From NCBI GenBank assembly GCA_963709345.1, contig CAVPVX010000007.1:704001-768000 (forward strand): a DNA stretch of 64,000 bases, in the 5' to 3' direction. The notes below the pieces were generated by a model. The model saw nothing but the letters and a program-made list of their open reading frames with translations. It was not told the DNA's origin and searched no databases. Positions within the stretch are counted from its first letter, which is position 1; each line of letters begins with the position of its first letter. This stretch comes from an uncultured Actinomycetes bacterium. GTDB taxonomy: Bacteria; Actinomycetota; Thermoleophilia; UBA2241. This document shows, piece after piece, positions 7,622 through 64,000 of the stretch. The position numbers were made by a program, and so were the translations under genes.

Positions 7622-8671
7622 TCAGAAGCGCCGGACCTCTCGGTACAGCGTGTCCCGCTGCACCGGCGTGCGGCCGGCGGCGCGAATGAGCCGCACCATC
7701 TCGTCCACGTCGCACTGGTTGCGCACGCCGGCGGCGGCGACGACGTTCTCCTCGATCATGGTGGAGCCCAGGTCGTTGGCGCCGAAGGCCAGCGCGACCT
7801 GCCCGAGCCTCAGGCCCTGCGTGACCCACGACGCCTGGATGTTCGGAACGTTGTCGAGGTAGACGCGGCTGACGGCCAGGAGCCGCAGGTAGTCGAAGCC
7901 GGTGGCGGGCGTGTGGCCGGCCGCGAGCTCCGTGTTGCCGGCCTGGAAGGTCCACGGGATGAAGGCGGTGAAGCCACCGGTCTCGTCCTGCAGGTCGCGG
8001 ATGCGACGCAGGTGCTCGACGCGCTCCGCCGGCGTATCCAGCGAGCCGAACATCATCGTCGCCGTGGTCTTCATGCCGAGGCCGTGCGCGACACGCATCA
8101 CGTCGAGCCAGGTGTCGGTGGGGATCTTGTGCGGGCTGATGGCGGTGCGCACCCTGTCGACGAGCACCTCGGCGCCGCCGCCGGGGACGCTGTCGAGACC
8201 GGCGGCGTGGAGGCGGCGCAGCGTCTCGTCCACGGTCAAGTCGCTCGTCTTGGCGAGGTGCGCGATCTCGGGTGGCGAGAGCGAGTGGATGTGGATGGGG
8301 TAGCGTGCCTTGATGCCGCTGAAGACACGCTCGAACCAGCAGATGTCGAGGTCCGGGTGCAAGCCGCCCTGCATCATGATCGCGGTGCCGCCGAGGGCGA
8401 GCGTCTCCTCGATCCTGCGGTGGATGTCATCCTCGGAGAGCAGGTAGCCCTCCCCGCTCCCCGGCTTCTTGTAGAAGGCGCAGAAGCGACAGCCGGAGAT
8501 GCAGTAGTCCGTGTAATTGATGTTGCGGTCGACGATGAAGGTGACGTCGTCGCCGGGGTGGAGGCGTCGACAGACGGTGTCGGCGCGGGCGCCCAGAGCC
8601 AGCAGATCGCCGCCCTCAAGCAGGGCGAGGGCCTCGGGGTCGGAGATCCGCCCTGGCGCCTGCTCGCTCAC
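7622..8671 (-). CDS. mqnC: Cyclic dehypoxanthine futalosine synthase (radical SAM)
   Basis: TFIVDRNINYTDYCISGCRFCAF, PGGGAEVL, FIPWTFQ and GANDLGSTMIEENVV. Confidence 0.93.
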   Translation of the reverse strand: MSEQAPGRISDPEALALLEGGDLLALGARADTVCRRLHPGDDVTFIVDRNINYTDYCISGCRFCAFYKKPGSGEGYLLSEDDIHRRIEETLALGGTAIMMQGGLHPDLDICWFERVFSGIKARYPIHIHSLSPPEIAHLAKTSDLTVDETLRRLHAAGLDSVPGGGAEVLVDRVRTAISPHKIPTDTWLDVMRVAHGLGMKTTATMMFGSLDTPAERVEHLRRIRDLQDETGGFTAFIPWTFQAGNTELAAGHTPATGFDYLRLLAVSRVYLDNVPNIQASWVTQGLRLGQVALAFGANDLGSTMIEENVVAAAGVRNQCDVDEMVRLIRAAGRTPVQRDTLYREVRRF

Positions 8672-8898
8672 GAGACATCCCGGTCAAGCCGCTTGACCAT
8701 GACGACCAAGTCGAAGCCGGCGAGAAAGCCGACCAGCCCTCCATCTTCCTCGCCGATGATGCAGGTGTCGCCGAGATGCTCGAACAACTGCGGGCACACC
8801 GCGTGCACCATGTGGCGGCCCGGCCACCAGTCGTCGATGGCCTGTGCGACCGCCCCCGCGTCCGTGGGCTCAGCGGCGTGCCACGCCACGGCGCTCAC
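8668..8898 (-). pseudogene. Internally deleted GNAT paralogue (76 aa)
   Basis: DDWWPGRHM..CPQLFEHLGDTCIIGEEDGGLVGFLAGF parallels the N-half of the adjacent GNAT, then jumps to a C-terminal strand; the acetyl-CoA motif is missing. Confidence 0.6.
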
Positions 8899-9398
8899 GC
8901 GCCGGCCTTCGGTTCGAGGAGCAGCTGAAAGCGCACCCGTTGGTCGCCGTGCGGCCCGCGCTCGGTGGTGACCGGGACGCCTTCGATCTCGTCGTCGCCG
9001 GGCAGGAGCGTGAACCCGAGCGCGGTGTGGAAGGCGATGGAGCCGGTGTTGACCGGAGCCGTGACGGCGCGGACCACGGAACGGCCGTCCGCGCGCGCCA
9101 TGTCGAGGAAGCGGCGGTAGAGGTCGCTGGCGAGACCGGCGCGCCGCCACTCGGGAGCCACACCGGCGAAGTGCACGTACGCCTCGTCGGCATGGTCCGG
9201 GCAGAAGAAGCCGACGAGGAAGGCGATGAGCCTGTCCTCGTGCTCGACGAGCAACGAGGTGCCGCGGAAGTGCTCGAAGAAGACGCGCGGCAGCAGCGCG
9301 CGCAGGTCGCGGCCGTCCCACCAAGCCGGCAGGACGGCCATCACGCGCTCCCAGTCGTCCGGGATCGGCCGGCGGAAGATGATGCCGGAACAGCTCAT
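8895..9398 (-). CDS. GNAT family N-acetyltransferase
   Basis: AYVHFAGVAPEWRRAGLA motif A and NTGSIAFHTALGF motif B. Confidence 0.88.
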   Translation of the reverse strand: MSCSGIIFRRPIPDDWERVMAVLPAWWDGRDLRALLPRVFFEHFRGTSLLVEHEDRLIAFLVGFFCPDHADEAYVHFAGVAPEWRRAGLASDLYRRFLDMARADGRSVVRAVTAPVNTGSIAFHTALGFTLLPGDDEIEGVPVTTERGPHGDQRVRFQLLLEPKAGA

Positions 9399-9409
9399 CG
9401 GCGCCGGCC

Positions 9410-10274
9410 TCAGGCGCCGCCGGCCGCGGCGGCCGGTCCGTCCAGGTCGGGGACGCGCGCGAGCTCGCCGATGACGGCGGCGCGCCGGTAGAACTCGCTC
9501 AGCCCCTCCCGGTACTCGGGCGTGAAACCGAACTTGAGCTTGTCGAAATAGTCCATGAGGTACGCCTGGCTGAAATCGTAGACCTGGGCGGCCGCGGCGG
9601 CGGTGGCCCCGGGAGCCGCCGCGCACGCGTCGCGCGACGCGAGAAGCGCAGCGCCGACCGCAGCCGCCGCCTCGGGGCGCGCCTCCACGAAGTCCCGGCG
9701 CGCGGCGCACACCGCGTACACCATCGGCAGGCCCGTGACGCTCTTCCACTCGGCGCCGAGGTCGAAGTGGTGCGGGTAGGCCTCCACGCGCAGCAGGTGC
9801 AGCGCCTCGTCGCCGATCAGGAGCAGCGCGTCGAAGTCCTCGAGGACCTCCGACAACGGGCCGCGGCGCGGCGCGAACTCCGGATCGATTCCCCACTCGC
9901 GGCAGAGCACCTTGAGCAGGCAGATGGAGGTCGCGCTCTTCTCCGTCAGCGCGACTCTGCGGATGCGCGCGAGCGGGGTGCGCGCGAACAGCTGGATGGA
10001 GTCCACGGCGCCGAACGAACTGATGGAGATGTGCGGCAGCAGAACCTGCTCCTCGGCGTTGCGGGCGAAGGCGATGGAGGATGACAGCGTGACGTCGATG
10101 GTCCCGTCGACCAGCATGTCGTTGAGCGCCGCGGGATAGCCCTCGACGATCTCGGCGCCGACGCCGCGGGCGGAGAGCTCGCCGCTGAAGTGGTGGTAGA
10201 GCGGAAAACAGTTGACGAACTCGATGCGCCCAACGCGCACGGGAGCGTCGACCGGCGCACCTGCGGCGGCCGGC

Positions 10275-10285
<11 letters not shown>
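9410..10285 (-). CDS. mqnA: Chorismate dehydratase (futalosine pathway)
   Basis: VGRIEFVNCFPL, SATS, LLIGDEAL and DLGAEWKSVTGLPMVYAV. Confidence 0.92.
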
Positions 10286-11396
<1,111 letters not shown>

Positions 11397-11415
11397 GGAA
11401 TGGACTCCAGGTTCG

Positions 11416-12396
11416 TCAGCTGTAGCGGTCGACTACCTGCGCCGCCACCTGGCCGAGCAGGTCGCGCTCGACGGTGTCGGGGCAGGAAGCAAGGACCGAC
11501 CGGGCCTCTTCAATGTACCGCAAAGCGGTGGCCCGGGCACGCTCGAGGGCGCCGCACTCGGCCACCGCGCGCAGGACGGCCGCCACGTCTTCGTCCGTGG
11601 CCGGCATCGCCAGGAGTCCCGCCAGCTCGGGCCGAGCCTCGAGAGCGTAGATGAGCGGCAGCGTGATCGTGCCGCCCCGCACGTCGGTCCCCGGGCGCTT
11701 GCCGGTGTTCGCCTCGTCACCCTCGCAGTCGAGGATGTCGTCGAAGACCTGGAAGGCCAGGCCCATGAGGCGGCCGAACTCGCCGACGGCGGCCACCGCG
11801 AGCGGCCCGGCCGCCGAGAGCATGGCGCCCAGCGAGCACGCGGCGGCGAACAGGTCGGCCGTCTTGCGTTCGCAGCGCCGCCCGTACGCCGACTCGTCGA
11901 CGGCGGTGTCGAAGGCCTCGGCGCGCTGCAGCACCTCGCCTTCGCTGAGGCCGACGGCGGTCGCACTCAGGATGTCCACGGCCGCCGGCTCGCCGGCGCC
12001 GACGAGCTCGGAGAAGGCGCGGGCGAGCAGGTAGTTCCCGGCGGACACCGCCGTCGACGCGCCGTAGCGGTGCGCCACCGTGGGCCGCCCCCGCCGCACC
12101 TCGGCCTGGTCGAGCACGTCGTCGTGCACAAGTGTCGCCATGTGCAGAAGCTCGACCGCCGCGGCTCCGCGGAGCACGGACTCACCCAGCGGGACACTCC
12201 GGCGCGCGCACAGGAGCACGAGCAGCGGCCGCATGCGCTTGCCTCCGGCTTCCAGTGTGGTCGCGCACGCCTTGCCGAGCGGACCCGGGTACTGCCCGGT
12301 CACGGTCGCGAGCCGCGCCTCGACGAGTTCGAGACCGCGCGCGTAGCGGCGCCGCTGAGCGGCCGAGCGCCACGAGAGGGCGGGGCGAGGCTTCAC
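11416..12396 (-). CDS. Polyprenyl diphosphate synthase (HepT/IspB-like)
   Basis: GGKRMRP, ELLHMATLVHDDVLD..RRG, KTA and AFQVFDDILD motifs; GTG overlaps the menG stop. Confidence 0.92.
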   Translation of the reverse strand: MKPRPALSWRSAAQRRRYARGLELVEARLATVTGQYPGPLGKACATTLEAGGKRMRPLLVLLCARRSVPLGESVLRGAAAVELLHMATLVHDDVLDQAEVRRGRPTVAHRYGASTAVSAGNYLLARAFSELVGAGEPAAVDILSATAVGLSEGEVLQRAEAFDTAVDESAYGRRCERKTADLFAAACSLGAMLSAAGPLAVAAVGEFGRLMGLAFQVFDDILDCEGDEANTGKRPGTDVRGGTITLPLIYALEARPELAGLLAMPATDEDVAAVLRAVAECGALERARATALRYIEEARSVLASCPDTVERDLLGQVAAQVVDRYS

Positions 12397-13181
12397 CTCG
12401 GCGCCTCGCCCACGTGCAGAGCCACGGCGCCGAACCCGAGGCGACGGAAGCGCACGTTGCGCAGCCCGGCGGCCGCCATGATCGCCGCCAGTCCCTCGGC
12501 GCGCGGGAAGGCGGCGACCGATGCGGGAAGATACGCGTACGCCGCCCGATCGCCGGTCACGACCCGGCCGAGAAGCGGGACGACCATGCCCATCCAGACT
12601 TGGTGGAAGCGCCGGCCGGGGCCGGCCGGCGCTTGCGTCGACTCGAGGCATACCACACGGCCTCCCGGGCGCGTGACGCGGGCCATCTCACGAAAGGCCC
12701 GCGCGACGTCCGGGACGTTGCGGACCCCCCAGCCCACCGTGACGGCCGCAAAGCTGTCGTCGTCGAAGGGCAGGTCGAGCAGGTCTCCGACGACGAAGGC
12801 GGCGGGCGCGGGCCTGCCGCGGCGCTCCCGCGCCGCGGCCTTCTCCCGCGCCCGGTCGACCATGGCCGCGGTGAAGTCGAGGCCGGTGACCGCGCAACCC
12901 GGACACGCGTCGAGCAGGCTGAACGTGAGATCGCCGGTGCCGCAGCACGCGTCGAGGACCGAGTCGCCGGAAGAGACCTGGGACTGGAGAGCTGCCGTCC
13001 GCCGCCACCGGCGATCGAGACCCGCGGTCATGAGCCGGTTCATGACGTCGTACCGTGCCGCGATGCCGCCGAACATCGCCTCGATCCGGCCGGGATCGCG
13101 ATCCATCGGCAGACCGCCCGTGCCGGCCGGCGCGGGCCGGCCTCCTGAGCCGGGCTCGTCGACCGGCTCGTCCACCGGCAT
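12393..13181 (-). CDS. menG: Demethylmenaquinone methyltransferase
   Basis: MFGGIAARYDVMN, VLDACCGTGDL and YAYLPASV; start could be the later ATG (MDRDPG). Confidence 0.92.
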   Translation of the reverse strand: MPVDEPVDEPGSGGRPAPAGTGGLPMDRDPGRIEAMFGGIAARYDVMNRLMTAGLDRRWRRTAALQSQVSSGDSVLDACCGTGDLTFSLLDACPGCAVTGLDFTAAMVDRAREKAAARERRGRPAPAAFVVGDLLDLPFDDDSFAAVTVGWGVRNVPDVARAFREMARVTRPGGRVVCLESTQAPAGPGRRFHQVWMGMVVPLLGRVVTGDRAAYAYLPASVAAFPRAEGLAAIMAAAGLRNVRFRRLGFGAVALHVGEAPR

Positions 13182-13792
13182 CAGCGCCGGCCCCCGTCCC
13201 ACGGCGGGAAGAGGGTCTGGGCGAAACCGAGGGCGCTCATCACCTTGCCGGCGATGTGATCGACCGCGTCCTGCAGCGACTGCGGCCGCGTGTAGAAGCC
13301 GGGCATGGCCGGGACCACGACGGCGCCGGCCTCGGCCAGTTCGAGCAGCCGGCGCAGGTGGATCTGCGTGAGCGGTGTCTCGCGCGGTACGAGCACCAGC
13401 GGTCGCCGCTCTTTGAGGGCGACGTCTCCGACGCGGTGCATGAGCGTGCGCGTCGTACCCAGCGCAAGGTGTGCGGCCGTCGACATCGAGCACGGGCACA
13501 CGACGGCGGCGTCGGGGAAGCTGCTGCCGCTCGCCGCCGGCGCCGCGAGGTCGTCGGGCGCGTACACCTCCGCGGTGGCGCCGGCGCGCTCGAGAAAGGC
13601 CGCAGTGACCGCCTCACGTCCCTCGGCGGGCAGCTCGAGTTCGTGCTGAAGAACGAGCACGCCGCTCTCCGAGACGCTGAGCTGCATGGCGCAGCCGGCC
13701 TCTGCCAGCGCCTGCACGAGACGCAGCGCGTAGGGCGCGCCGCTGGCGCCGCTCACGCCGACGAAGACGCTCTGTGGAGGGCGACCGGTCAT
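13181..13792 (-). CDS. ubiX: Flavin prenyltransferase
   Basis: VGVSGASGAPYA, PCSMST, DVALKERRPLVLVPRETP and PAMPGFY. Confidence 0.95.
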   Translation of the reverse strand: MTGRPPQSVFVGVSGASGAPYALRLVQALAEAGCAMQLSVSESGVLVLQHELELPAEGREAVTAAFLERAGATAEVYAPDDLAAPAASGSSFPDAAVVCPCSMSTAAHLALGTTRTLMHRVGDVALKERRPLVLVPRETPLTQIHLRRLLELAEAGAVVVPAMPGFYTRPQSLQDAVDHIAGKVMSALGFAQTLFPPWDGGRR

Positions 13793-14436
13793 GTCTCACG
13801 CTCCGTACGCCGGCGCCCGCAGCCGGCTGTTGCCTCAGGGATCGATGCCCCCTGCGTGTCACTGACCACCGTAGCAGCCCTTTGCCCGGTGCCGCCGTTG
13901 CCGTGGCGCGATACGGAGCGGTGGCACCGCACGCAGGTGCTCTTGGGGACGCGCTTCCGCGCCTTGTGGAACGTGCCGGCTTGACACGACCAGCAGGTGT
14001 CGTCGGGGTAGCTCCGGAAGTCGGTATGGCATGCGCTGCAGGTGGCGTCGGTGGGTGCCCCGCCGCTGTGGCAACTGCACCCGGCAGCGCCTTCGTGGCC
14101 CCACGCCCCGAGCGGCCGCTCTTGCTTGTAGTGATCGACGGGCGGCGACCCCGCGAAGACCACCTTGTCGAACGGCCAGTTCTCGGGCTTGAGGTGAGCG
14201 CTGAAGAAGTGGGGGAAGATGAAGATCACGCTGATGAGTGTGATGTACGCAGCGTGGAAAGACCAGGCCGGCAGCGACGAGCGCGGGCTCCGTCGCCTTG
14301 CACGACGCGCAGTACGTGGGTGTATCGGTGACCCAGACGGGGATGACCACGACGACCGCGAGCACGGCGATGAAGCCGATGGCGGCGGCGGCGGAGACCC
14401 ACGGCGACCGGTACCACGGACGCGGCCTCGGCTCAT
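13789..14436 (-). pseudogene. Degraded multiheme cytochrome c / cytochrome b mosaic
   Basis: TM anchor plus TDTPTYCASCK in one frame; HFFSAHLKPENWPFDKVVFAG plus CSACH, CWSCQ and CVRCH in another; no single intact frame. Confidence 0.6.
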
Positions 14437-14610
14437 AGCGGCAACGCGGGCGGCCCTAAGGCAAGATCGCGGACCTCTCTGGCTCAAGGCTCTGACAGTG
14501 CGGCCGGGCGATAGAGTCCCCACTCTTCGGTCCGGCAGACCGGATCGTGCCATCCCGGGTATACGGCGGCGAGTGCTTGTTGCCTTGATCCGCCGCCGCG
14601 GCGCCGCGCC

Positions 14611-15489
14611 TCAGTGCACCGTCACGGACAGGATGACCACGGCGCCGTAGAGCAGGCCGACGGCGCCGTTGACGGTCATGAAGCCCATGCCGACCTCGCG
14701 GAGGCCCCGCCGGGCGATATCGACGTGCGACCAGGCGAGGATCGCCGCGACCAGCGCCAGGCCGCACCAGTACACCCAGCCGAGCCCTGCGAGCGCGCCG
14801 ACGGCGGCGAGCAGCGCCACGGTGGCGATGTGTGAAGCAGCAGCGGCCAGGATCGCGCCGCGCTCGCCGGCGGCGACGGGCAGCGAGTGCAGGCCGTGAG
14901 CGCGGTCGAACTCGAGGTCGAAGACCGCGTACAGCACATCGAACCCCCCGACCCAGAGCCCGACGGCGAAGAACAGCAGCCAGGCCTCCGCGGCGACCGA
15001 GCCCGTGACCGCCACCCACGCGGCCGCCGGCGCCAGCCCGAGGGTGAGGCCGAGGAAGTAGTGGCAGAACCAGGTGAAGCGCTTGGTGTACGGATACAGG
15101 ACGAACGCCGCCAGCGGGATCGGCCAGAGGTAGCGGCACGGCGCGGAGAGGTTGATGGCGGCGACCACGAGCAGAGCCACGGAGACGGCGGTGAACAGCC
15201 AGACCTCGCGCCGGGCGAGGCGCCCCGTGGGCAGCTCGCGCTCCGCGGTCCGCGGGTTGCGCGCGTCGATGCCGGCGTCGATGAGGCGGTTGAGCGCCAT
15301 CGCCGCGCTGCGCGCGCCGACCATCGCCACGGTGATCCAGAGGAGCTGACTCCAGGTCGGCGCCCCGTCCGCGGCCAGGAAGGCGCCGGCATAAGCGAAC
15401 GGCAGGGCGTAGACGCTGTGCTCGATCTTGACGAGCCGGGCGAAGAGCGTGGGCCTGGAGACGCGGCCGGCGTCGCCGGAGGACGACAC
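14611..15489 (-). CDS. UbiA-family prenyltransferase (MqnP-like)
   Basis: KIEHSVYALPFAY, ARSAAMALNRLIDAGIDARNPRT, YPYTKRF and GFDVLYA. Confidence 0.92.
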   Translation of the reverse strand: MSSSGDAGRVSRPTLFARLVKIEHSVYALPFAYAGAFLAADGAPTWSQLLWITVAMVGARSAAMALNRLIDAGIDARNPRTAERELPTGRLARREVWLFTAVSVALLVVAAINLSAPCRYLWPIPLAAFVLYPYTKRFTWFCHYFLGLTLGLAPAAAWVAVTGSVAAEAWLLFFAVGLWVGGFDVLYAVFDLEFDRAHGLHSLPVAAGERGAILAAAASHIATVALLAAVGALAGLGWVYWCGLALVAAILAWSHVDIARRGLREVGMGFMTVNGAVGLLYGAVVILSVTVH

Positions 15490-15496
15490 CCGAGGG

Positions 15497-15727
15497 TCAG
15501 ACGCCGGGCGCGGCGGGCTTGCCTGCCGCCTTGTCGGCGGACTCGGCCTCGGGCTTCTCGGCCGGTGTCGAGGCGGGTGCGCTCGCGTCCGCATCGACCA
15601 CGCCCGCCGCCACGACGGTGGGCGACGTGATCCCCAGGTACGCGCTGATCGTCCAGCAGACGATGGCGATCGCCCAGTTGGCGAGCGACAGGATCAGCAG
15701 GTGGCGATGGATGTTCCCGTGAAACAC
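15497..15727 (-). CDS. Small single-TM hypothetical protein
   Basis: AGGAGG RBS before GTG; one hydrophobic segment followed by an Ala/Pro-rich tail; in operon orientation. Confidence 0.65.
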   Translation of the reverse strand: MFHGNIHRHLLILSLANWAIAIVCWTISAYLGITSPTVVAAGVVDADASAPASTPAEKPEAESADKAAGKPAAPGV

Positions 15728-15831
15728 GGCCGCCTCCTCACGTTGCCCGTGGCTTCGTCACGACGGCCCCAGTCTAGAAGCGCGTCGCTCCTGCGTAAAG
15801 CGTCGCGGGGAGACGCCGTTCGCGGGCGGCC

Positions 15832-17274
15832 TCACGTGAACGGCAGCCCGAGCTCGGCCCAGCGGGCGTCCACGCGGGCGACGACCTCCGGGCTCATACC
15901 CAGCTCGTCGGGCCAGTCGCGGGTGTGACCCTCCTCGGGCCAGGTCCTGGTCGCGTCGATACCCATCTTGGCTCCGTAGCGCGCCAGCGTGCTGGAGTGG
16001 TCGAGCACGTCGAGCGGGCCGTCGACCACGACGCAATCGCGGGCCGGGTCGACGTTGTTGAACACCCGCCAGGTGACGTCGCTGTAGTCGTGGACGTCCA
16101 CGTGCTCGTCGACGACCACGACGAACTTGGTGAACATCATCTGCCCCATGCCCCACACGGCGTTCATGATCTTGCGTGCCTGACCGGGATACTCCTTGCG
16201 GATGCTGATGATGGCGCAGTCGTGGAAGACGCCCTCGATCGGCAGGTCCATGTCGACGATCTCGGGCTGGACCAGCTGCAACAGCGGGAGGAAGAGGCGC
16301 TCTGTCGCCTTCCCGAGGTACGCGTCCTCCATCGGCGGCTTGCCGACGATGGTGGCCGGATAGATGGGGTCGCGGCGATGGCTCATGGCGGTGAGATGGA
16401 AGACCGGGTACTGGTCGGCCAGCGAGTAGTAGCCGGTGTGGTCGCCGAACGGCCCCTCGAGCCGCGTCTCTCCCTTCTCGACGTAGCCCTCGAGGACGAT
16501 CTCGGCGTCGGCCGGCACCTGCAGGTCGACCGTCTGGCAAGGGGCCATGTCGACCGGCTCGCCGCGCAGGAAGCCGGCGAACATGAACTCGCTGATGCCC
16601 GGCGGGAGCGGCGCCGTGGCGGCGTACGTGACGGCCGGGTCGGTGCCGAGGGCCACCGCCACCTCCATGCGGTCGCCCGCCTCGCGGAAGTTGGCCGCGC
16701 CGTCGTGGTGGACGTGGATGTGCATGCCGGTGGTCCGGCCGTCGAAGACCTGCAGACGGTACATGCCGGCGTTCTGGCGGCCTTGGCGGTCCTTGGTGAC
16801 GACGATCGGCAGGGTGATGAAGGGGCCGCCGTCGCCGGGCCAGGTGGTGAGCACCGGCAGGCGCGCAAGGTCCGGCGGGTCGACGACGACCTCGCGCCAG
16901 GCGGCCTTCTTGCCGTACCTGGGCCCGTAGGAGGCGAGTTCCTTGAGCTGGCCGAGCGCCTTGACCTTGCCGACGAGGCCGCTCGGCACCTGCAACTCGA
17001 GCAGGCCGCCGATGCGCTCTGCGATGTCGTCGAGCGGTGCGCCGAGCGCCAGCTCGAGACGCCTGTACGAGCCGAGCTGATTCATGAGAACGGGCACGGC
17101 CGGGCCGGCTCCGCCCGCCGGCCGCTTGGGCTGCTCGAAGAGCAACGCGGGGCCGTGGGCCTTGCTGGCCCGGTCGGCGATCTCGGCCATCTCGAGGTAT
17201 GGGTCGACCTCCGGACGCACGCGGGCGAGCTCGCCCTCGCGTTCCAGCAGACTGATGAAGGCGCGCAGGTTCAC
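15832..17274 (-). CDS. UbiD-family menaquinone biosynthesis decarboxylase (MqnL-like)
   Basis: WPGDGGPFITLP, NAGMYRLQ, EGPFGDHTGYY and KMGIDAT; start 17274 or 17280. Confidence 0.93.
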   Translation of the reverse strand: MNLRAFISLLEREGELARVRPEVDPYLEMAEIADRASKAHGPALLFEQPKRPAGGAGPAVPVLMNQLGSYRRLELALGAPLDDIAERIGGLLELQVPSGLVGKVKALGQLKELASYGPRYGKKAAWREVVVDPPDLARLPVLTTWPGDGGPFITLPIVVTKDRQGRQNAGMYRLQVFDGRTTGMHIHVHHDGAANFREAGDRMEVAVALGTDPAVTYAATAPLPPGISEFMFAGFLRGEPVDMAPCQTVDLQVPADAEIVLEGYVEKGETRLEGPFGDHTGYYSLADQYPVFHLTAMSHRRDPIYPATIVGKPPMEDAYLGKATERLFLPLLQLVQPEIVDMDLPIEGVFHDCAIISIRKEYPGQARKIMNAVWGMGQMMFTKFVVVVDEHVDVHDYSDVTWRVFNNVDPARDCVVVDGPLDVLDHSSTLARYGAKMGIDATRTWPEEGHTRDWPDELGMSPEVVARVDARWAELGLPFT

Positions 17275-17276
17275 GG

Positions 17277-17900
17277 TCACCTCCCGATGTCGGTGGTGGG
17301 GGTCGGGTCGGCGGTGGCCGGCCCAGCGACGGTATCGAGCGCGCGGAGCAGCGGCGAGGCGTCGGCGAGGCCGAGACGGCCGGCCGCCCGCGTGACGGCG
17401 GCGGGAACGTCCGCCTGGCGCGACCCTCCGAGGGCCGCGTCCACCTCGTCGAACAGCGCGGCGACCGCGGCGGGCTCGGCGCCGGCGTGCTGCGCCGCCA
17501 GCCCGCCCATCGTGTACGCCCACAAGGCGTCGTCGTCGGCGAACGGAGCCCGGCTGCCGCGAAGGTACGAGCAGGCGGCCATGAGCCGTGCCAGCAGGCC
17601 GACGGCGTCGATGTCGCCGCGCGCGGCGATACCGCGCAGGCCGCGCGCGTAGAAGTAGTCGCCGGCGAGCAGCCGTGCCGCAAGGTTATCCGCCTCCAGC
17701 GAAACCGCGCGGCTCTCACGGTAGTGGAGCAAGTACCCCTCGTAGATGAGCTCGATGGCGACGGCGAAGCCCGGGTCGATGCCGGCATCCAGCGTGGTGT
17801 ACAGCACGCCCCACCGGGGCTCGGGCGGCACGGAGAGGGGCGGGCCGAACTTCTCCCCGGCGTCGATCAGCGCCGCCGCCACGCCGGGAGCGATGTCCAT
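17277..17900 (-). CDS. Polyprenyl-synthase-fold accessory protein (possible HepS-like small subunit)
   Basis: IELIYEGYLLHY and RLLAGDYFYARGL resemble isoprenoid synthase helices but lack DDxxD; lies in the menaquinone operon. Confidence 0.55.
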   Translation of the reverse strand: MDIAPGVAAALIDAGEKFGPPLSVPPEPRWGVLYTTLDAGIDPGFAVAIELIYEGYLLHYRESRAVSLEADNLAARLLAGDYFYARGLRGIAARGDIDAVGLLARLMAACSYLRGSRAPFADDDALWAYTMGGLAAQHAGAEPAAVAALFDEVDAALGGSRQADVPAAVTRAAGRLGLADASPLLRALDTVAGPATADPTPTTDIGR

Positions 17901-17902
17901 CG

Positions 17903-18553
17903 TCAGTCCTGTTCCCTGTCGAGGTAGAACGTCAACGACATCAGCTCGCTGGAGAGGTCGACCTGGCGCACAAGCACGCCCTCGGGCGTGGGAACCTTGA
18001 CCGGCGCGAAGTTGAGGATCGCCCGCACGCCGGCCGCGGCCAGCCGCTGGATCGTGGCCTCGGCCTCGGTCGCGGGCACCGTGACCATGGCGATGTCGAC
18101 CTTTTCGCGACGGCAGAACTCGTCAAGCTCCGTGATGCTGCGCACGCGTCCGTCGTCGCCCGCCGCGTACCGGGCGCCGATGACGGTGGCAGAGCTGTCG
18201 AAGATGCCCGCCACGCGAAAGCCCTGCTCGCCGAAGCCGCGGTACCGAGCGAGGGCGCGGCCCAGCTGCCCGGCGCCGATGATGACCACGTTCCATGTGT
18301 GATCGAGGCCGAGGCAGCGGGTGATCTCGTCGACCAGCAGCGGCACCTCGTAGCCCACGCCGCGTGTGCCGAACTCGCCGAAGTACGAGAAGTCCTTGCG
18401 GATCTGCGCGGCGTTCAGGTCGATCATCTCCGCGAGGTCCTTGGATGAGACGCGGTCGACACCCCTGGCGCGCAGCTCGCGCAGCTTGCGCAGGTACAGC
18501 GCCAGCCGGGGGACGGTGACGCTGGGGACGTCGTTCTTGTCGACGTTGCGCAC
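17903..18553 (-). CDS. rex: Redox-sensing transcriptional repressor Rex
   Basis: TVPRLALYLR, QIRKDFSYFGEFGTRGVGY, GAGQLGRAL and ILNFAP. Confidence 0.96.
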   Translation of the reverse strand: MRNVDKNDVPSVTVPRLALYLRKLRELRARGVDRVSSKDLAEMIDLNAAQIRKDFSYFGEFGTRGVGYEVPLLVDEITRCLGLDHTWNVVIIGAGQLGRALARYRGFGEQGFRVAGIFDSSATVIGARYAAGDDGRVRSITELDEFCRREKVDIAMVTVPATEAEATIQRLAAAGVRAILNFAPVKVPTPEGVLVRQVDLSSELMSLTFYLDREQD

Positions 18554-18555
18554 GG

Positions 18556-19848
18556 TCAGGCCTCCGCCGCGATGAACCACTCGCACGCCGCCGCGGCGGC
18601 GTGCTCGAGGTCGGCATCGGTGAGCGCCAGCGAGATCATCGCCGCCTCGAACTGCGACGGGGCGAGGTAGACGCCGCGCTCGAGCATGTGACGCCAGTAG
18701 GAGGCGAAGGCCGCGGTGTCGGCGGCCTTCGCCTCGGCGAAGCTGCGCACCGGCCCTTCACAGAAGAACACGGTGAGCATCGGGCCGACGCGGTTGATGG
18801 TCACCGCGCGGCCGGCGGCCTCCGCCGCGGTGCGCAGACCGTCGACGGCCCGGGCGGCGAGCGCCTCGAGGCGCTCGTAGGTGTTCGGTTCGCCGAGCAC
18901 GCGCAGCGTGGCGGCTCCGGCCGCCATCGCCAAAGGGTTCCCCGAGAGAGTGCCCGCCTGGTAGGTGGAGCCGAGCGGCGCGACCGTCTCCATGATCTCA
19001 CGGCGGCCGCCGAAGGCGCCAACCGGGAGACCGCCGCCGATGATCTTGCCGAGTGTCGTGAGGTCGGGGGTCACGCCGAAGCGCTCCTGGGCGCCACCCC
19101 AGGCGACGCGAAAGCCGGTGATGACCTCGTCGAAGACGAGCACGGCCCCGTACTCGGTGCAGAGATCGCGGCAGGCCTCCAGGAAGCCCGGCTCCGGCGG
19201 CACCACGCCCATGTTGCCGGCCACCGGCTCCACGATGAGAGCGGCGATCTCCTCGCCGCGCGCCGCGAACAGGTCCGTGAGCGCGGCGACGTCGTTGTAC
19301 TCCACGAGCAGCGTATCGGCGGTCGTGCTCCTCGTGACTCCCGGGCTGTCGGGCAGCGCCAGCGTGAGCGCCCCGCTGCCGGCGGCGGCCAGGAACCCGT
19401 CGGAGTGCCCGTGGTAGCAGCCGATGAACTTGACGATCTTCTCGCGGCCGGTGAAGCCGCGGGCGACGCGCACGGCGCTCATCGTCGCCTCGGTCCCGGA
19501 GTTGACCATGCGCACGAGCTCGACGGAGGGCACCGCCTCGCAGATGAGGCGTGCCAGCTCGACCTCCAGCTCCGTGGGCGCGCCGTAGCTGGTGCCACGG
19601 TCCACCTGCTCCTTGAGCCGGCCGACCACCTCGGGGTGCCCCCAGCCGAGGATCATCGGACCCCACGACGAGACGAAGTCGACGAACTCGTTGCCGTCGG
19701 CGTCCCAGATGTGCGCGCCCTCGGCCCGGGCCATGAAGAGAGGGTGCGGCACGCCGACGCCCTTCATGGCGCGGACCGGCGAGTTGACCCCGCCCGGGAT
19801 GTAGAGCTGCGCCTCGGCAAAGAGACGAGCGGAGGTTTCGGTGTTCAC
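18556..19848 (-). CDS. hemL: Glutamate-1-semialdehyde 2,1-aminomutase
   Basis: IPGGVNSPVRA, VNSGTEATMSA, FDEVITGFR, GKIIGGGLP and APSQFEA. Confidence 0.97.
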   Translation of the reverse strand: MNTETSARLFAEAQLYIPGGVNSPVRAMKGVGVPHPLFMARAEGAHIWDADGNEFVDFVSSWGPMILGWGHPEVVGRLKEQVDRGTSYGAPTELEVELARLICEAVPSVELVRMVNSGTEATMSAVRVARGFTGREKIVKFIGCYHGHSDGFLAAAGSGALTLALPDSPGVTRSTTADTLLVEYNDVAALTDLFAARGEEIAALIVEPVAGNMGVVPPEPGFLEACRDLCTEYGAVLVFDEVITGFRVAWGGAQERFGVTPDLTTLGKIIGGGLPVGAFGGRREIMETVAPLGSTYQAGTLSGNPLAMAAGAATLRVLGEPNTYERLEALAARAVDGLRTAAEAAGRAVTINRVGPMLTVFFCEGPVRSFAEAKAADTAAFASYWRHMLERGVYLAPSQFEAAMISLALTDADLEHAAAAACEWFIAAEA

Positions 19849-45165: not shown

Positions 45166-45403
45166 CCCCCCACCTCCCCTGGTGCATCACCGAGGCCGGG
45201 CCGGCCCGGCGGCTACGCGAGCAGTATAGGGCCACTGTGACAACGCGCAACGGTCCTGGCGCCGGCGAAAGGCGCCCGCCCCGTCCAGTCCTTCCACGCG
45301 GCCCGGCGGTCCGCCCGGCGGGAGGCTCGAGCGACCTCCGCGCGGTAGAGTGGACCCAACCAACGTCGGCGGACTTGAAGTGGACACCGAAGGGAGTGAG
45401 CCC

Positions 45404-46873
45404 ATGAAGCGCAATCTCCAGGCGGGCGTGCGGCGCAACGCCGGCGCTCGCTTTGAGGTCTTCAGCGAAGCGGACCTCGACGACATCCATCGCGCCACAC
45501 TGGAGGTGCTCGAGCGCACCGGTGTGTTCGTGGAGAGTGACGACGCGCTCGACGTGTACGCCGACGGCGGCTGCCGCGTCGATCGCGAGACCAAGACCGT
45601 GAGGTTCCCGCCGCACATCATCGAGGACGCCATCCGCTCGTCACCGAGCAGCGTGCGGCTCTGCGGGCGGGTGCCGGAGAACGACATCATGCTCGAGGGC
45701 GGCCGGGTCGGCTTCACCAACTTCAGCGCCGGCATCATGGTCCTCGACCCGCGGACCGACGAGCACCGCCAGTCCACCGGGCAGGACGTCGCGGATCTCG
45801 CACGCATGACCGATTACCTCAGCGAGATCGACACGTACGAGCACTCCGTCGAGAGCCGCGAGTCGTCGCAGGACACGCTGGCCGTGCGCGACGCGGCCAT
45901 CGGCCTCGCGAACACGACCAAGTGCGTCGGCACCGGGGCGCTCTCGACGGACGACGTCGAGGCCATCGTGCGCATGGGCGCCGCCGTGGCCGGCGGCGAG
46001 GACAAGCTCCGCGAGCGGCCGCTCGTCTACTTCTGCGAGTGCCCCGTCAGCCCGCTGAAGCTCACGCGCGACGCGGCCGAGGTCATCATGGGCGCCGCCC
46101 GCCACGGCCTCCCGAACAACGTCATCTCCATGGCGATGTCCGGCGCGACCTCCCCGGTCACCTTGGCCGGCACGCTCGTCACGCACAACTGCGAGGTGCT
46201 CTCGAGCATCACCCTCGCGCAGCTCACCGAGCGTGGGGCGCCCAGCATCTACGGCTCGTCGACGACGACCATGGACCTGCGGCTCGCGACGGCCTCCGTG
46301 GGCTCGCCCGAGCTCGGCTTGCTCAGCGCCGGCGTGGCCCAGCTCGCACAGCGCTACCTGCTGCCGAGCTTCGTGGCCGGGTTGTAGGCAGACTCCAAGC
46401 TCGGTGACGTGCAGACCGGTCACGAGAAGACGATGACCGCCCTCATGGCAGCGTTGGCAGGCGCCAACCTGATCTACGGGGCGGGAATGACCGAGTCGGG
46501 CGTCACCTTCGATTACGCGCAGTACGTGCTCGACAACGAGATCGCGACCATGGTCAAGCGCGCGGTCGGCGGCATTCCCGTCAGCGACGAGGATCTGGCC
46601 GTCGACGACATCCACAAGGTCGGGTCGTTCGGCCACTATCTGGGCCTCCCGGCGACCCGCAAGCGCGGGCGCGAGCTCAGCCAGCCCAAGCTTCTTGACC
46701 GCCGCGGTCGCGAAGGTTGGGAGGCCACGGGCTCCGTGGACGCCTACTCCGCCGCCAAGGAGGCGGCGAAGCAGATCCTCGAAGAGTACCGGCCGGAGCC
46801 GCTCTCGAGCGACGTCGCCGACGAGATCCAGGCGATCCTGCACGAAACGGAGGAGCGGCGCGGCGTCTCGTGA
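45404..46873 (+). CDS. mttB: Trimethylamine:corrinoid methyltransferase with in-frame TAG (46385-46387, codon 328), predicted pyrrolysine
   Basis: CPVSPL, SMAMSGATSPVTLAG and YGSSTT; the reading frame continues LPSFVAGL-TAG-ADSKLGDVQTGHEKT in frame to 46873, matching the Pyl position of MttB. Confidence 0.9.
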
Positions 46874-61933: not shown

Positions 61934-62009
61934 TGGCGCCCCCGGCTGGAATCGAACCAGCGACACCAGGTTTAGGAAACCTGTGCTCTATCCACTGAGC
62001 TACGAGGGC
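61934..62009 (-). tRNA. tRNA-Arg(CCT)
   Basis: GCCCTCGTAGCTCAGTGGATAGAGCACAGGTTTCCTAAACCTGGTGTCGCTGGTTCGATTCCAGCCGGGGGCGCCA: cloverleaf, anticodon CCT, CCA end. Confidence 0.96.
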
Positions 62010-62980: not shown

Positions 62981-64000
62981 CTAGCCGCGACGGCTTGCGA
63001 GCGCGATGACGTTGTCGGGCGCGGGCTGCGCATCCTCGGCCGCCTTCGTCTCAGCCTGCTCGAGGGCGGCCCTCGTCACCTCGTCGAGCCCTGCCACCGC
63101 CTTCGCCCGCGCGGCGGTGGTGAGGCGCACGTAGTGCCGCAGCGTGGTCGCCGGGTCGGAGTGCCCGAGCCACTCCTGCGCCTGCTTGACCCCGTAGGTC
63201 TCGTAGACCCAGGTGCCGAACGAGTCTCTGAGCCCGTGGATCGGAAGGTGCGGGTCGATCTTCTGGCGAGCGACCCAGTTCCACCACTGGCTCTTGAGGG
63301 TCGAGGGCGCCATCTGGGTGCCGTCCTTCTTGGGGACCACGCGGCCGGCCTCGTTCCAGGCCGGGCCCTGGGCCAGGCGGTACTCCTTCTGGGCGGCGAG
63401 CCAGACGCGCAGCTCGTCGCAGGCCGCGGCGGGCAGCGGCACGGTCCGCGCCTTGCCGTTCTTGGGCGGGTACTCGAGCAGCGTGCCGTCCTCGTCCTCT
63501 TCGACGGTGCGGGACACGGTGACGAAGCCGCGCTCGAGGTCGAGGTCGCTCCAAAGCAGGCCCGCGATCTCACCGACGCGCAGGCCGGAGAAGCCGGCGA
63601 GCACGCCGGCGGCGTGGACCTGCAGGCCGCGCGCCTTGATCACCGTGCTCGCGATCTCCTCCATGCTCCAGACCGGGCGCGTCTTCGGGCGCAGGGCGGG
63701 CGGGTTCTTGACGCGCAGCGCCGGGTTCACGAGCAGCAGCTCCTCCTCGAGCGCCCAGTTGTAGGCGGTCTTGAGCATCGCGTGGTGGTGGGCGACGGTG
63801 GTCTCGGCCAGCGGCTTCGCCTTCTTGCTCCCCCGCAGCTTCGCGGCGTAGTAGGTCGAGAGCTGCGCGCGGGTCAGCTTGCCGGCGAGCACCTGGCCGA
63901 GCGCGGGGTCCACGTGGATCCGGCGGATGCGGCGGTAGGAGTTGTAGCTGGCGACGCGCATCTCGCCGCGGGTCGCCTCGAGCCAGCGGTCGAGGAGCTC
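62981..64000 (-). CDS. Tyrosine recombinase / phage integrase (5' end outside the window)
   Basis: SGLRVGEIAGLLWSDLD, PKNGKAR, HGLRD, LGHS and LRHY catalytic motifs. Confidence 0.93.
   Translation of the reverse strand, partial: ELLDRWLEATRGEMRVASYNSYRRIRRIHVDPALGQVLAGKLTRAQLSTYYAAKLRGSKKAKPLAETTVAHHHAMLKTAYNWALEEELLLVNPALRVKNPPALRPKTRPVWSMEEIASTVIKARGLQVHAAGVLAGFSGLRVGEIAGLLWSDLDLERGFVTVSRTVEEDEDGTLLEYPPKNGKARTVPLPAAACDELRVWLAAQKEYRLAQGPAWNEAGRVVPKKDGTQMAPSTLKSQWWNWVARQKIDPHLPIHGLRDSFGTWVYETYGVKQAQEWLGHSDPATTLRHYVRLTTAARAKAVAGLDEVTRAALEQAETKAAEDAQPAPDNVIALASRRG

What the first reader, a model, noticed from the sequence alone, without database searches (positions are those of the whole stretch)
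45404..46873. Probable pyrrolysine-containing trimethylamine methyltransferase in a high-GC (likely actinobacterial) genome
Seen: two ORF-track entries are one frame split only by TAG at 46385-46387, in the context PSFVAGL*ADSKLGDVQTGHEKT. Established: methanogen and firmicute MttB carry Pyl at this position (VAGxO-xD-xK..GHEKT). Inference: the organism uses the 22nd amino acid and demethylates TMA, which would be unusual for this lineage. No pylTSBCD, corrinoid protein or ramA is in the window, so the gene stands alone here.
Basis: partly seen in the sequence, partly recalled or inferred. Interest (0 to 1): 0.82.

Follow-up and report, generated by a model that had tools for sequence, protein, structure and literature searches.

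The report
Pyrrolysine-type mttB gene in Thermoleophilia
This is a real trimethylamine methyltransferase gene whose in-frame TAG codes for the 22nd amino acid, pyrrolysine, in an uncultured soil actinobacterium that carries the full pyrrolysine machinery; the call is right, but the trait has already been reported for this group.

Summary
One frame, 45404-46873 (+), is interrupted only by TAG at 46385-46387. It passes the curated Pyl-MttB model (666 bits, cutoff 525). The TAG aligns with Pyl334 of solved M. barkeri MttB.

The "would refute" test fails to refute. The 98%-complete genome has pylB, pylC, pylD, tRNA-Pyl(CUA), pylSn and pylSc on contig 11. It also has 7 full-length TAG-mttB, 10 TAG-mtbB, corrinoid proteins and a RamA-type activase.

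All 8 orthologs keep the TAG, and the part after it is under purifying selection.

The organism is an uncultured Thermoleophilia bacterium. PylS is found in 80 of 89 genomes of its family, but PylD in only 2 of 401 sampled across the phylum.

Caveats:
- pylC has a one-base frame break in the assembly; one public contig lacks it.
- TAG is still an ordinary stop, and RF1 is present.
- The window copy has Ser-Ala where Gly110-Thr111 are expected.

Pyl-type mttB and mtbB expressed by Actinobacteriota MAGs are already in print (PMC10805028), and this scan has met the trait in at least 12 other genomes. It is a new member of a known kind. A small conserved hairpin after the TAG is the only possibly new element.

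The parts
45404..46873 (+). mttB, a Pyl-type trimethylamine:corrinoid methyltransferase gene (489 codons including the UAG; stop TGA at 46871-46873)
   Evidence: One frame. Pfam MTTB 323.8 bits. NCBIfam TIGR02369 trimeth_pyl equivalog 666.4 bits against a cutoff of 525. PDB 7xcl_A and 7xcm_A MttB, 386-388 bits. GC3 0.94 before and 0.90 after the TAG.
45392..45396 (+). Shine-Dalgarno-like GGGAG, 7 nt before the ATG
   Evidence: Read directly from the sequence printed.
46385..46387 (+). In-frame UAG, the predicted pyrrolysine codon (residue 328 of the protein)
   Evidence: Aligns with X334 (Pyl) of 7xcl_A. TAG is kept in 8 of 8 orthologs. The same motif carries TAG in the 6 other full-length paralogs.
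46385..46484 (+). Match to Rfam RF02510 PYLIS_3 ('Pyrrolysine insertion sequence mttB'), starting at the UAG
   Evidence: 75.9 bits against a gathering score of 38, E 1e-15, model positions 1-100. Several model pairs are non-canonical here, so the score rests mostly on the conserved coding sequence.
46453..46468 (+). 6-bp hairpin GUUGGC-AGGC-GCCAAC inside the coding sequence (peptide A-L-A-G-A-N), 68 nt after the U of UAG
   Evidence: Part of the MFE fold. 125 of 126 pair cells are canonical in 21 distinct Pyl-mttB sequences. It is built from the rare codons TTG (4.6-4.9% of Leu) and GCA (4.5% of Ala), which are invariant in 21 of 21, while the loop Gly codon varies. 0 of 24 non-Pyl paralogs use TTG there.

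Best explanation
The ORF 45404-46873 is an intact, functional mttB gene of an uncultured Thermoleophilia actinobacterium.

The ribosome reads its single in-frame UAG (46385-46387) as pyrrolysine, using tRNA-Pyl(CUA) charged by a split bacterial-type PylSn/PylSc. The Pyl is made from lysine by PylB, PylC and PylD, all encoded on contig 11. Shown here: the genes, the tRNA, the alignment of the UAG with Pyl334, and conservation of the UAG and of the downstream frame.

Inferred from the family's known chemistry (M. barkeri MttB; PMC9842639): the Pyl imine binds trimethylamine and presents a methyl group to the Co(I) corrinoid of an MttC-like protein. Because the window copy has no corrinoid gene beside it, it would have to use one encoded elsewhere (12 such loci in the genome). 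A RACo/RamA-type activase on contig 9 would re-reduce the oxidised corrinoid. Dimethylamine would be handled by the 10 Pyl-type MtbB enzymes.

TAG ends about a quarter of the other genes and RF1 is present. Pyl insertion must therefore compete with termination, as in other Pyl-using bacteria. It is probably helped by regulated expression of the pyl genes (inference, not tested).

The enzyme that passes the methyl group on from the corrinoid was not identified.
For: Family and Pyl column:
- TIGR02369 equivalog 666.4 bits against a cutoff of 525.
- The UAG aligns with X334 of 7xcl_A.
- Met249 and Tyr364, named as catalytic-site residues in PMC9842639, are kept.

Machinery in the organism's own genome (98% complete):
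- PylSc 318 bits (cutoff 178), PylB 427 (348), PylD 212.5 (150), PylC 280 summed (248), PylSn 122.5 (51).
- tRNA-Pyl(cta) at C11:14991-15063, directly after pylD, with a 6-bp anticodon stem and a tiny D-arm.

Pathway:
- 7 full-length TAG-mttB and 10 full-length mtbB, each with exactly one TAG.
- Of these, 6 mttB and 5 mtbB were scanned with NCBIfam, and all pass their equivalog cutoffs.
- Corrinoid proteins lie beside several of them and beside pylSc.
- A full RACo architecture is present.

Selection:
- TAG is kept in 8 of 8 orthologs.
- dN/dS after the TAG is 0.16-0.49 in 8 of 8 comparisons.
- Variable columns after the TAG by codon position are 55/47/101.

Lineage:
- PylSc is over the cutoff in 80 of 89 family genomes.
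- tRNA-Pyl lies within 6 kb of pylSc in 23 of 32 relatives' loci.

Print: Actinobacteriota MAGs express Pyl-type mttB and mtbB (PMC10805028, passages).
Against: - pylC carries one extra base near C11:13877 relative to 7 of 7 relatives aligned, which shifts the frame for the last 60 or so codons. The only counter-evidence is a single public contig (264 nt, 1 mismatch, depth 2.39) that lacks the base.
- No RNA or protein evidence exists for this genome.
- TAG is not avoided: 514 of 2088 crudely called ORFs end in TAG. TAG-ending genes have no nearer back-up stop than TGA-ending ones (median 50 against 53 codons, p = 0.77). RF1 is present. Read-through efficiency is therefore unknown.
- The window copy has the lowest model score of the 6 mttB copies scanned (666 against 681-740).
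- No corrinoid gene lies nearby.
- It has Ser-Ala where M. barkeri has Gly110-Thr111. The structure paper calls Gly110 100% conserved among Pyl-MttBs, so substrate or kinetics may differ.
- The downstream methyl acceptor was not found: MtrH 0 hits, acetyl-CoA synthase 0 hits, and only a FolP-like and one weak Pterin_bind hit.
Confidence: 0.88

Rival explanations
1. The gene is Pyl-dependent, but the window's orthogroup is not specific for trimethylamine. It would be a diverged Pyl-MttB that acts on another methylated amine or works with different kinetics.
For: It has the lowest equivalog score of the 6 copies scanned (666.4 against 681-740). It sits as an orphan, without a corrinoid gene. It reads Ser-Ala at the Gly110-Thr111 position in 9 of 9 members of the orthogroup, and the sister paralog group reads Ser-Glu in 3 of 3. 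PMC9842639 states that Gly110 is 100% conserved among Pyl-MttBs.
Against: It still passes the equivalog cutoff by 141 bits. Pyl, Met249 and Tyr364 are kept. The Gly110 contact is through a main-chain carbonyl, which a Ser could also provide. No Pyl-MttB with another substrate is known to me (recalled).
Confidence: 0.15
2. The Pyl system is broken in this particular strain because the pylC frameshift is real. The UAG would then act as a stop, and the gene would yield only a 327-residue fragment.
For: The assembly has one extra base in pylC that 7 of 7 aligned relatives lack. Many MttB-family copies in this assembly are also split between frames.
Against: A near-identical public contig omits exactly that base (table 4), though it is one contig at depth 2.39. 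All 17 full-length TAG genes remain intact after their TAG. The many split genes fit assembly indel errors at least as well as they fit decay.
Confidence: 0.07
3. The gene is a pseudogene or a sequencing artefact: a chance nonsense mutation or base-call error in a non-Pyl MttB homolog.
For: The genome holds 24 near-full-length non-Pyl MttB paralogs and many broken copies.
Against: The TAG sits at the exact Pyl column. It is present in 8 of 8 independently assembled orthologs. The downstream part has dN/dS 0.16-0.49 and an open frame of exactly 161 codons. The protein matches the Pyl-type equivalog, not merely the superfamily.
Confidence: 0.02

Closest known systems
Methanosarcina barkeri MttB (Pyl334; PDB 7XCL, 7XCM, 7XCN; Li et al. 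2023, PMC9842639)
   Same: It aligns over the full length (query 2-484 against chain 3-490, 386-388 bits). The UAG falls at the Pyl334 column. Met249 and Tyr364 are kept. The post-UAG 100 nt match Rfam PYLIS_3.
   Different: It is a bacterial (actinobacterial) gene at 69% GC. It has Ser-Ala in place of Gly110-Thr111. No mttC lies beside it. The host is no methanogen, and its pylS is split into pylSn and pylSc. A 6-bp hairpin after the UAG is not part of the Rfam model's structure.
Pyl-type mttB and mtbB of Actinobacteriota MAGs from a permafrost mire (Ellenbogen et al. 2023, PMC10805028)
   Same: Same phylum and same gene pair, also recognised by truncation at the amber codon. The paper reports that such genes are expressed (passages read). 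Its supplement lists a Thermoleophilia order and family RBG-16-64-13.
   Different: The passages I read do not describe pyl genes, tRNA-Pyl, copy numbers or TAG usage. I could not show that this genome belongs to the genera named there.
Pyl systems of Bacillota and Desulfobacterota (Desulfosporosinus, Sporomusa, Desulfitobacteriaceae, Desulfobulbus)
   Same: These hold the nearest PylSc outside Thermoleophilia, at 50-60% identity. They share the split pylSn/pylSc layout typical of bacteria (recalled). TAG is kept as a normal stop with RF1 present, as recalled for Pyl-using bacteria.
   Different: They belong to different phyla. This genome has a far larger set of Pyl genes (17 full-length). 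No acetyl-CoA synthase was found, so it is not an acetogen of the Sporomusa type.
Non-Pyl MttB superfamily (MtgB glycine betaine methyltransferase, PDB 2QNE and 9YCE)
   Same: Same fold family (213 bits). 24 near-full-length non-Pyl members lie in the same genome.
   Different: Those have an ordinary residue at the Pyl column (T, V, I, S, H, A, G, M, L or C in this genome) and do not reach the Pyl-type equivalog. The window gene has UAG there.

Membership tests
Pyl-dependent trimethylamine methyltransferase MttB (NCBIfam TIGR02369; Pfam PF06253) | Whole-protein score above the curated equivalog cutoff | tested here: met
   666.4 bits against 525. Pfam MTTB 323.8 bits against 25.
Pyl-dependent trimethylamine methyltransferase MttB (NCBIfam TIGR02369; Pfam PF06253) | Single in-frame UAG at the column of Pyl334 | tested here: met
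   Query residue 328 aligns with X334 of 7xcl_A (VAGL-UAG-ADSK against VAGS-X-SDAK).
Pyl-dependent trimethylamine methyltransferase MttB (NCBIfam TIGR02369; Pfam PF06253) | Tyr364 and Met249 of the active site (PMC9842639) | tested here: met
   NLIYG and SMAMSG are present in the window copy and in 8 of 8 orthologs.
Pyl-dependent trimethylamine methyltransferase MttB (NCBIfam TIGR02369; Pfam PF06253) | Gly110 (in a Gly110-Thr111 cis-peptide), said to be 100% conserved among Pyl-MttBs | tested here: not met
   FTNFSAG reads Ser-Ala at these columns in 9 of 9 members of the orthogroup. The paralogs on C6, C10 and C11 keep Gly.
Pyl-dependent trimethylamine methyltransferase MttB (NCBIfam TIGR02369; Pfam PF06253) | Cognate corrinoid protein (MttC) and reductive activase available | tested here: met
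   Neither is in the window. The genome has 12 corrinoid-protein loci, several of them beside Pyl methyltransferase genes, and a RACo-type activase at C9:6149-7930.
Pyl-dependent trimethylamine methyltransferase MttB (NCBIfam TIGR02369; Pfam PF06253) | TMA:corrinoid methyl transfer activity, and Pyl present in the mature protein | not testable with these tools
   This needs an enzyme assay and mass spectrometry.
Pyrrolysine encoding system (pylT, pylS, pylB, pylC, pylD) | tRNA-Pyl with a CUA anticodon and the unusual tRNA-Pyl shape | tested here: met
   C11:14991-15063. ARAGORN calls it tRNA-Pyl(cta), with a 6-bp anticodon stem, a 3-bp D-stem and a short variable loop.
Pyrrolysine encoding system (pylT, pylS, pylB, pylC, pylD) | Pyrrolysyl-tRNA synthetase (PylSc catalytic part plus PylSn) | tested here: met
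   TIGR02367 318.2 bits against 178. TIGR03912 122.5 bits against 51.
Pyrrolysine encoding system (pylT, pylS, pylB, pylC, pylD) | PylB and PylD intact | tested here: met
   427 bits against 348 and 212.5 bits against 150, with no stops inside.
Pyrrolysine encoding system (pylT, pylS, pylB, pylC, pylD) | PylC intact | tested here: inconclusive
   The summed score of 280 is over the 248 cutoff. However, the assembly has a +1 base near C11:13877 that 7 of 7 relatives lack. One near-identical public contig omits it (depth 2.39).
Rfam RF02510 PYLIS_3 | Score above the gathering threshold, starting at the UAG | tested here: met
   75.9 bits against 38 at window 46385-46484.
Rfam RF02510 PYLIS_3 | The model's base pairs are formed | tested here: inconclusive
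   Six positions are flagged as non-canonical pairs in the cmscan alignment. The source paper itself saw no common structure for mttB (PMC3639795, passage).

The most novel reading that the evidence does not exclude
Thermoleophilia Pyl-type mttB genes carry a lineage-specific mRNA hairpin that selection maintains (window 46453-46468, centred about 76 nt after the UAG). It is not part of Rfam's PYLIS_3 structure. It sits at nearly the same distance from the UAG as the covarying PYLIS_2 hairpin of mtbB (centred about 82 nt). Together the two could be a positional cis-signal that favours Pyl insertion over RF1 termination, in a bacterium where TAG otherwise ends about a quarter of the genes. Supporting evidence: of the 41 codons invariant in all 7 paralogs, the only two rare ones are the adjacent TTG and GCA that form the stem; the loop codon varies; and 0 of 24 non-Pyl paralogs use TTG there. 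An earlier report of this scan (e1-4927847) made the same claim on other DNA.
Probability: 0.25. Interest if true: 0.55.

Novelty: new member of a known kind. Interest (0 to 1): 0.35.

Why it matters
Pyrrolysine use is rare in bacteria. In this genome's phylum, PylD was found in only 2 of 401 sampled genomes. Yet a whole family of uncultured soil and peat Thermoleophilia carries it: PylSc is present in 80 of 89 genomes.

This genome has 17 full-length Pyl genes and about 24 non-Pyl MttB paralogs. It looks like a specialist in methylated amines that could compete with methylotrophic methanogens for trimethylamine and dimethylamine, which bears on methane budgets in wetlands (the theme of PMC10805028).

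In practice, standard gene callers split all 17 genes in two. These genomes therefore need Pyl-aware annotation. The lineage would also be a high-GC, non-Bacillota source of PylRS/tRNA-Pyl pairs.

The basic fact is already published and has been found repeatedly by this scan, so the surprise is modest.

Tried and rejected
- **Selenocysteine in MttB paralogs.** Four MTTB hits had an in-frame TGA, but all four TGAs lie upstream of the real start. Rejected.
- **C11:47019 as a Pyl gene.** It is a CobO-like gene ending in TAG, followed in frame by lysA. Rejected.
- **Other in-frame TAG candidates.** My GC3 scan gave 40. 11 were mttB or mtbB. I did not examine the other 28 beyond C11:47019. Most look like adjacent genes in the same frame, and the scan itself missed 1 mttB and 5 mtbB that were later found by HMM.
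- **Back-up stops after TAG-ending genes.** None found.
- **General synonymous constraint in the 35 codons after the UAG.** Not significant: 8 of 21 against 33 of 121, p = 0.31.
- **Single-sequence fold of the 120 nt after the UAG.** z = -1.88; 12 of 200 shuffles fold as well. Weak on its own.
- **mtbB hairpin as a novelty.** It is already in Rfam PYLIS_2.
- **Expression.** No RNA holder was listed by the look-up of sequencing runs.
- **Reads.** Only contigs at low depth were available. Runs X2-X4 hold relatives, not this strain.
- **Methyl acceptor.** MtrH gave 0 hits, acetyl-CoA synthase 0 hits, and Pterin_bind only a FolP-like hit and one weak hit. Not resolved.
- **Rfam gathering scan of the pyl locus.** 0 hits.
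- **MtbB against the PDB by sequence.** No relative found.
- **Literature searches that found nothing relevant.** pyrrolysine + Thermoleophilia (1 unrelated paper by title); pylS + Actinobacteriota (0); pyrrolysine + Actinomycetota (nothing relevant by title, and one paper read in passages).
- **Not used.** The search for homologous proteins, the search of protein representatives, structure prediction and complex prediction. The question did not need them.
Full report
**Observation.** The ORF listing gives two ORFs in one frame, 45350..46387 (ending in TAG) and 46409..46873. Translating 45404-46873 (+) gives a single frame with one internal stop. The ATG at 45404 has GGGAG 7 nt upstream, and the paralogs begin at the same residues.

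**What the gene is.** Read through the TAG, the protein matches Pfam MTTB (323.8 bits). It also passes NCBI's curated equivalog model for the Pyl-type enzyme, TIGR02369, at 666.4 bits against a cutoff of 525. Against the PDB it aligns end to end with M. barkeri MttB (7xcl and 7xcm, 386-388 bits). The TAG codon falls exactly on X334, the pyrrolysine.

The structure paper (PMC9842639, passages read) names Gly110-Thr111, Met249, Pyl334 and Tyr364 as the residues around the reactive imine. Met249 and Tyr364 are kept in the window copy. Gly110-Thr111 are Ser-Ala, and this holds in all 9 members of the window's orthogroup. A sister paralog group has Ser-Glu, and the paralogs on C6, C10 and C11 keep Gly. 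The paper states that Gly110 is 100% conserved among Pyl-MttBs, so this is a real departure. The contact is through the main-chain carbonyl, so the change need not abolish function.

**The decisive test: the rest of the genome.** The window is C7:704001-768000 of a 3.11-Mb, 11-contig, 98%-complete genome at 69% GC.

Contig 11 carries these genes in one 7.5-kb stretch:
- pylB (427 bits, cutoff 348)
- pylC (280 bits summed, cutoff 248)
- pylD (212.5 bits, cutoff 150)
- tRNA-Pyl with anticodon CUA, directly after pylD (C11:14991-15063)
- pylSn (122.5 bits, cutoff 51)
- a corrinoid protein
- pylSc (318 bits, cutoff 178)

The tRNA has the odd tRNA-Pyl shape: a 6-bp anticodon stem, a 3-bp D-stem and a short variable loop.

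**One flaw: pylC.** The PylC match changes frame about 60 codons before its end. Aligned with 7 relatives, this assembly has one extra base there, and all 7 relatives read through in one frame. I laid public contigs on the locus. In run X1, one near-identical contig (264 nt, 1 mismatch) leaves out exactly one base at L013:8877, which is C11:13877 (table 4). That points to an assembly error. It is a single contig at depth 2.39, however, and X1 may be the source sample, so I rate pylC as inconclusive, leaning intact.

**The gene is not alone in the genome.**
- An HMM search finds 64 MTTB pieces. 31 span nearly the whole model, and 7 of those have one TAG at the same motif: C6:35712, C7:341800, C7:749431 (the window), C8:2956, C1:442620, C10:88461 and C11:180069. 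There are also two TAG-bearing fragments.
- Ten full-length mtbB genes each carry exactly one TAG, and an eleventh copy is frameshifted.
- The 6 mttB and 5 mtbB that I scanned with NCBIfam all pass their equivalog cutoffs. The window copy scores lowest of the 6 mttB.
- Corrinoid proteins lie next to several of these genes. tblastn counts 12 such loci, five of them at least 99% identical to each other.
- A RACo/RamA-type activase with its full domain set is on contig 9.
- In the window itself the neighbours are a holin-X-like gene, an LPG-synthase-TM gene, DUF389, DUF1611 and a peptidase S51. It holds no corrinoid, RamA or pyl gene. The window copy is a true orphan and would have to use a corrinoid protein encoded elsewhere (inference).

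**Selection.**
- Eight other species of the genus have a clear ortholog (81-94% nucleotide identity over the gene).
- All 8 have TAG in the same column.
- After the TAG the frame stays open for exactly 161 codons in the 7 orthologs not cut by a contig end.
- dN/dS after the TAG is 0.16-0.49 in 8 of 8 comparisons, against 0.12-0.23 before it.
- Variable columns after the TAG fall 55/47/101 on codon positions 1, 2 and 3.

The part after the TAG is therefore translated, or has been throughout the divergence of these species.

**How TAG is handled genome-wide.** With a crude GC3-based gene caller, 514 of 2088 confident ORFs end in TAG, 1498 in TGA and 76 in TAA. TAG-ending ORFs have no nearer in-frame back-up stop than TGA-ending ones (median 50 against 53 codons; Mann-Whitney p = 0.77). 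RF1 is present (483 bits, cutoff 423). TAG is thus an ordinary stop here, and Pyl insertion must compete with termination. As I recall, this is the situation described for Pyl-using Bacillota, where the pyl genes are induced by substrate. Regulation in this organism is an inference.

**Lineage and rarity.**
- The records that hold the closest PylSc (66-86% identity) are titled as uncultured Thermoleophilia or Actinomycetota MAGs. The nearest others are Bacillota and Desulfobulbus, at 50-60%.
- PylSc is over the cutoff in 80 of 89 genomes of the same GTDB family, across all 11 genera.
- In a sample of 301 genomes of the class, PylD is found in 49 of 55 genomes of this family (not counting this genome), 3 of 55 of one other family, and 0 of 190 in the remaining ten families.
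- In a sample of 401 genomes of the phylum it is found in 2: this genome and one other of the same class.
- tRNA-Pyl lies within 6 kb of pylSc in 23 of 32 relatives' loci.

Pyl is thus a stable trait of one Thermoleophilia family and is rare elsewhere in the phylum, as far as sampled.

**What is in print.**
- Ellenbogen et al. [quoted passage not shown] They name RBG-16-64-13 among the most active genera (passages).
- Their supplement lists a Thermoleophilia order and family RBG-16-64-13.
- A preprint calls RBG-16-64-13 an undescribed actinobacterial genus.
- This genome's family may be that one, since one relative is a "Chersky" isolate and the supplement lists a genus Chersky-299 in that family. 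I could not show it.
- Searches for pyrrolysine + Thermoleophilia, pylS + Actinobacteriota, pyrrolysine + Actinomycetota and pyrrolysine + Actinobacteriota found no description of the pyl operon, the tRNA or the gene counts in this group. Subscription journals are not covered.
- This scan has already reported the same trait in at least 12 other Thermoleophilia genomes.

**RNA after the UAG.**
- The 100 nt from the UAG match Rfam PYLIS_3 (75.9 bits, gathering score 38). Six positions are flagged as non-canonical pairs, so the score reflects the conserved coding sequence. The source paper found no common structure for mttB (PMC3639795).
- A different, small hairpin stands out: GUUGGC-AGGN-GCCAAC at window 46453-46468. 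In 21 of 21 distinct Pyl-mttB sequences at hand (8 from this genome including 2 fragments, 13 from relatives), the Leu is TTG and the next Ala is GCA. The loop Gly codon varies (GGC, GGG, GGT). 125 of 126 pair cells are canonical, against 21-62 with slid partners.
- TTG is 4.6-4.9% of Leu codons and GCA 4.5% of Ala codons in this genome.
- Of the 41 codons invariant in all 7 paralogs, these two adjacent codons are the only rare ones. All the others have a share of at least 0.33.
- None of the 24 non-Pyl paralogs uses TTG there.
- There is no two-sided covariation, and the Pyl-type copies are each other's closest kin, so this is suggestive only.
- The mtbB genes have a longer hairpin at nearly the same distance from their UAG: 119 of 130 cells canonical, 4 of 13 pairs with changes on both sides, and slid controls of 41-61. 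That hairpin is already part of Rfam PYLIS_2 (69.9 bits).

**Open points.**
- The enzyme that takes the methyl group from the corrinoid was not found.
- No RNA or protein data exist for this genome.
- The two MtmB-like genes have no TAG. One has Ile at the Pyl202 column, so the fate of monomethylamine is unclear.

**Verdict.** This is a new member of a known, already published kind. The Ser-Ala active-site variant and the small post-UAG hairpin are the only features that go beyond it.

Noticed in passing
Genome-wide (e.g. C10:5000-31000, C2:330000-334000, C9:300-4600, C1:434000-454400); not in the window: The MttB superfamily is greatly expanded. There are 64 matched pieces, 31 of them near full length, and 24 of those lack Pyl, carrying T, V, I, S, H, A, G, M, L or C at the Pyl column. 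This suggests a specialist in quaternary and other methylated amines.
   Followed up: partly
C2:330290-333210, C10:13844-15245, C10:8783-10127, C7:338111-339503, C1:449578-454078, C8:11655-13051, C11:176097-177473: Many MttB and MtbB copies are split between adjacent reading frames, like pylC. These are either real decay of paralogs or one-base assembly errors. The one case checked (pylC) leans towards assembly error.
   Followed up: partly
C7:343293-343916, C10:87662-88282, C1:441970-442593 (-), C8:13078-13701, C11:177547-178167: Five corrinoid-protein genes are 99-100% identical at the protein level, with GC3 of 0.98-0.99, although the methyltransferase genes beside them have diverged to about 70-75% nucleotide identity. 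Gene conversion or very strong constraint could explain it.
   Followed up: no
C2:391900-393261 (-) = L107:7900-9261; C7:776285-777439: Two MtmB-like genes have no in-frame stop. The complete one has Ile where M. barkeri MtmB has Pyl202 (133 bits to 1l2q_A). It is a non-Pyl MtmB homolog of unknown substrate, and it lies between a TAG-mtbB and a non-Pyl MttB gene.
   Followed up: partly
L018:10608-10707 and the 9 other mtbB genes: The mtbB post-UAG region matches Rfam PYLIS_2 (69.9 bits, gathering score 36). Its 3' hairpin shows compensatory changes among the genome's own ten copies: 4 of 13 pairs changed on both sides, and 119 of 130 cells canonical. The predicted archaeal element is thus conserved in an actinobacterium.
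   Followed up: yes
C1:120215-120312 (-): A tRNA-Sec (anticodon TCA) is present, so the organism probably uses both the 21st and the 22nd amino acid. Its selenoprotein genes were not looked for.
   Followed up: no
window 7622-17523: A futalosine-type menaquinone gene set is present (MqnA-like VitK2_biosynth, two CofH/MqnC-type radical SAM genes, UbiA, UbiD, flavoprotein), followed by a Rex-like regulator at 17903-18586. This points to a respiratory, non-acetogenic lifestyle and fits the absence of acetyl-CoA synthase.
   Followed up: no
window 62981-63961 (-) and tRNA-Arg(cct) at 61934-62009 (-): A phage-integrase-family gene lies about 1 kb from a tRNA-Arg gene. This may be the edge of an integrated element. 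It is about 15 kb from mttB and was not examined.
   Followed up: no
L034 (record titled 'Deltaproteobacteria bacterium') and L049 (record titled 'Actinomycetota bacterium isolate palsa_647'): A contig labelled Deltaproteobacteria has a PylSc 78% identical to this genome's, as close as the Thermoleophilia relatives, so the label is probably a binning or naming error. L049 (69% identity) also has tRNA-Pyl and may represent the second Pyl-bearing family of the class.
   Followed up: no
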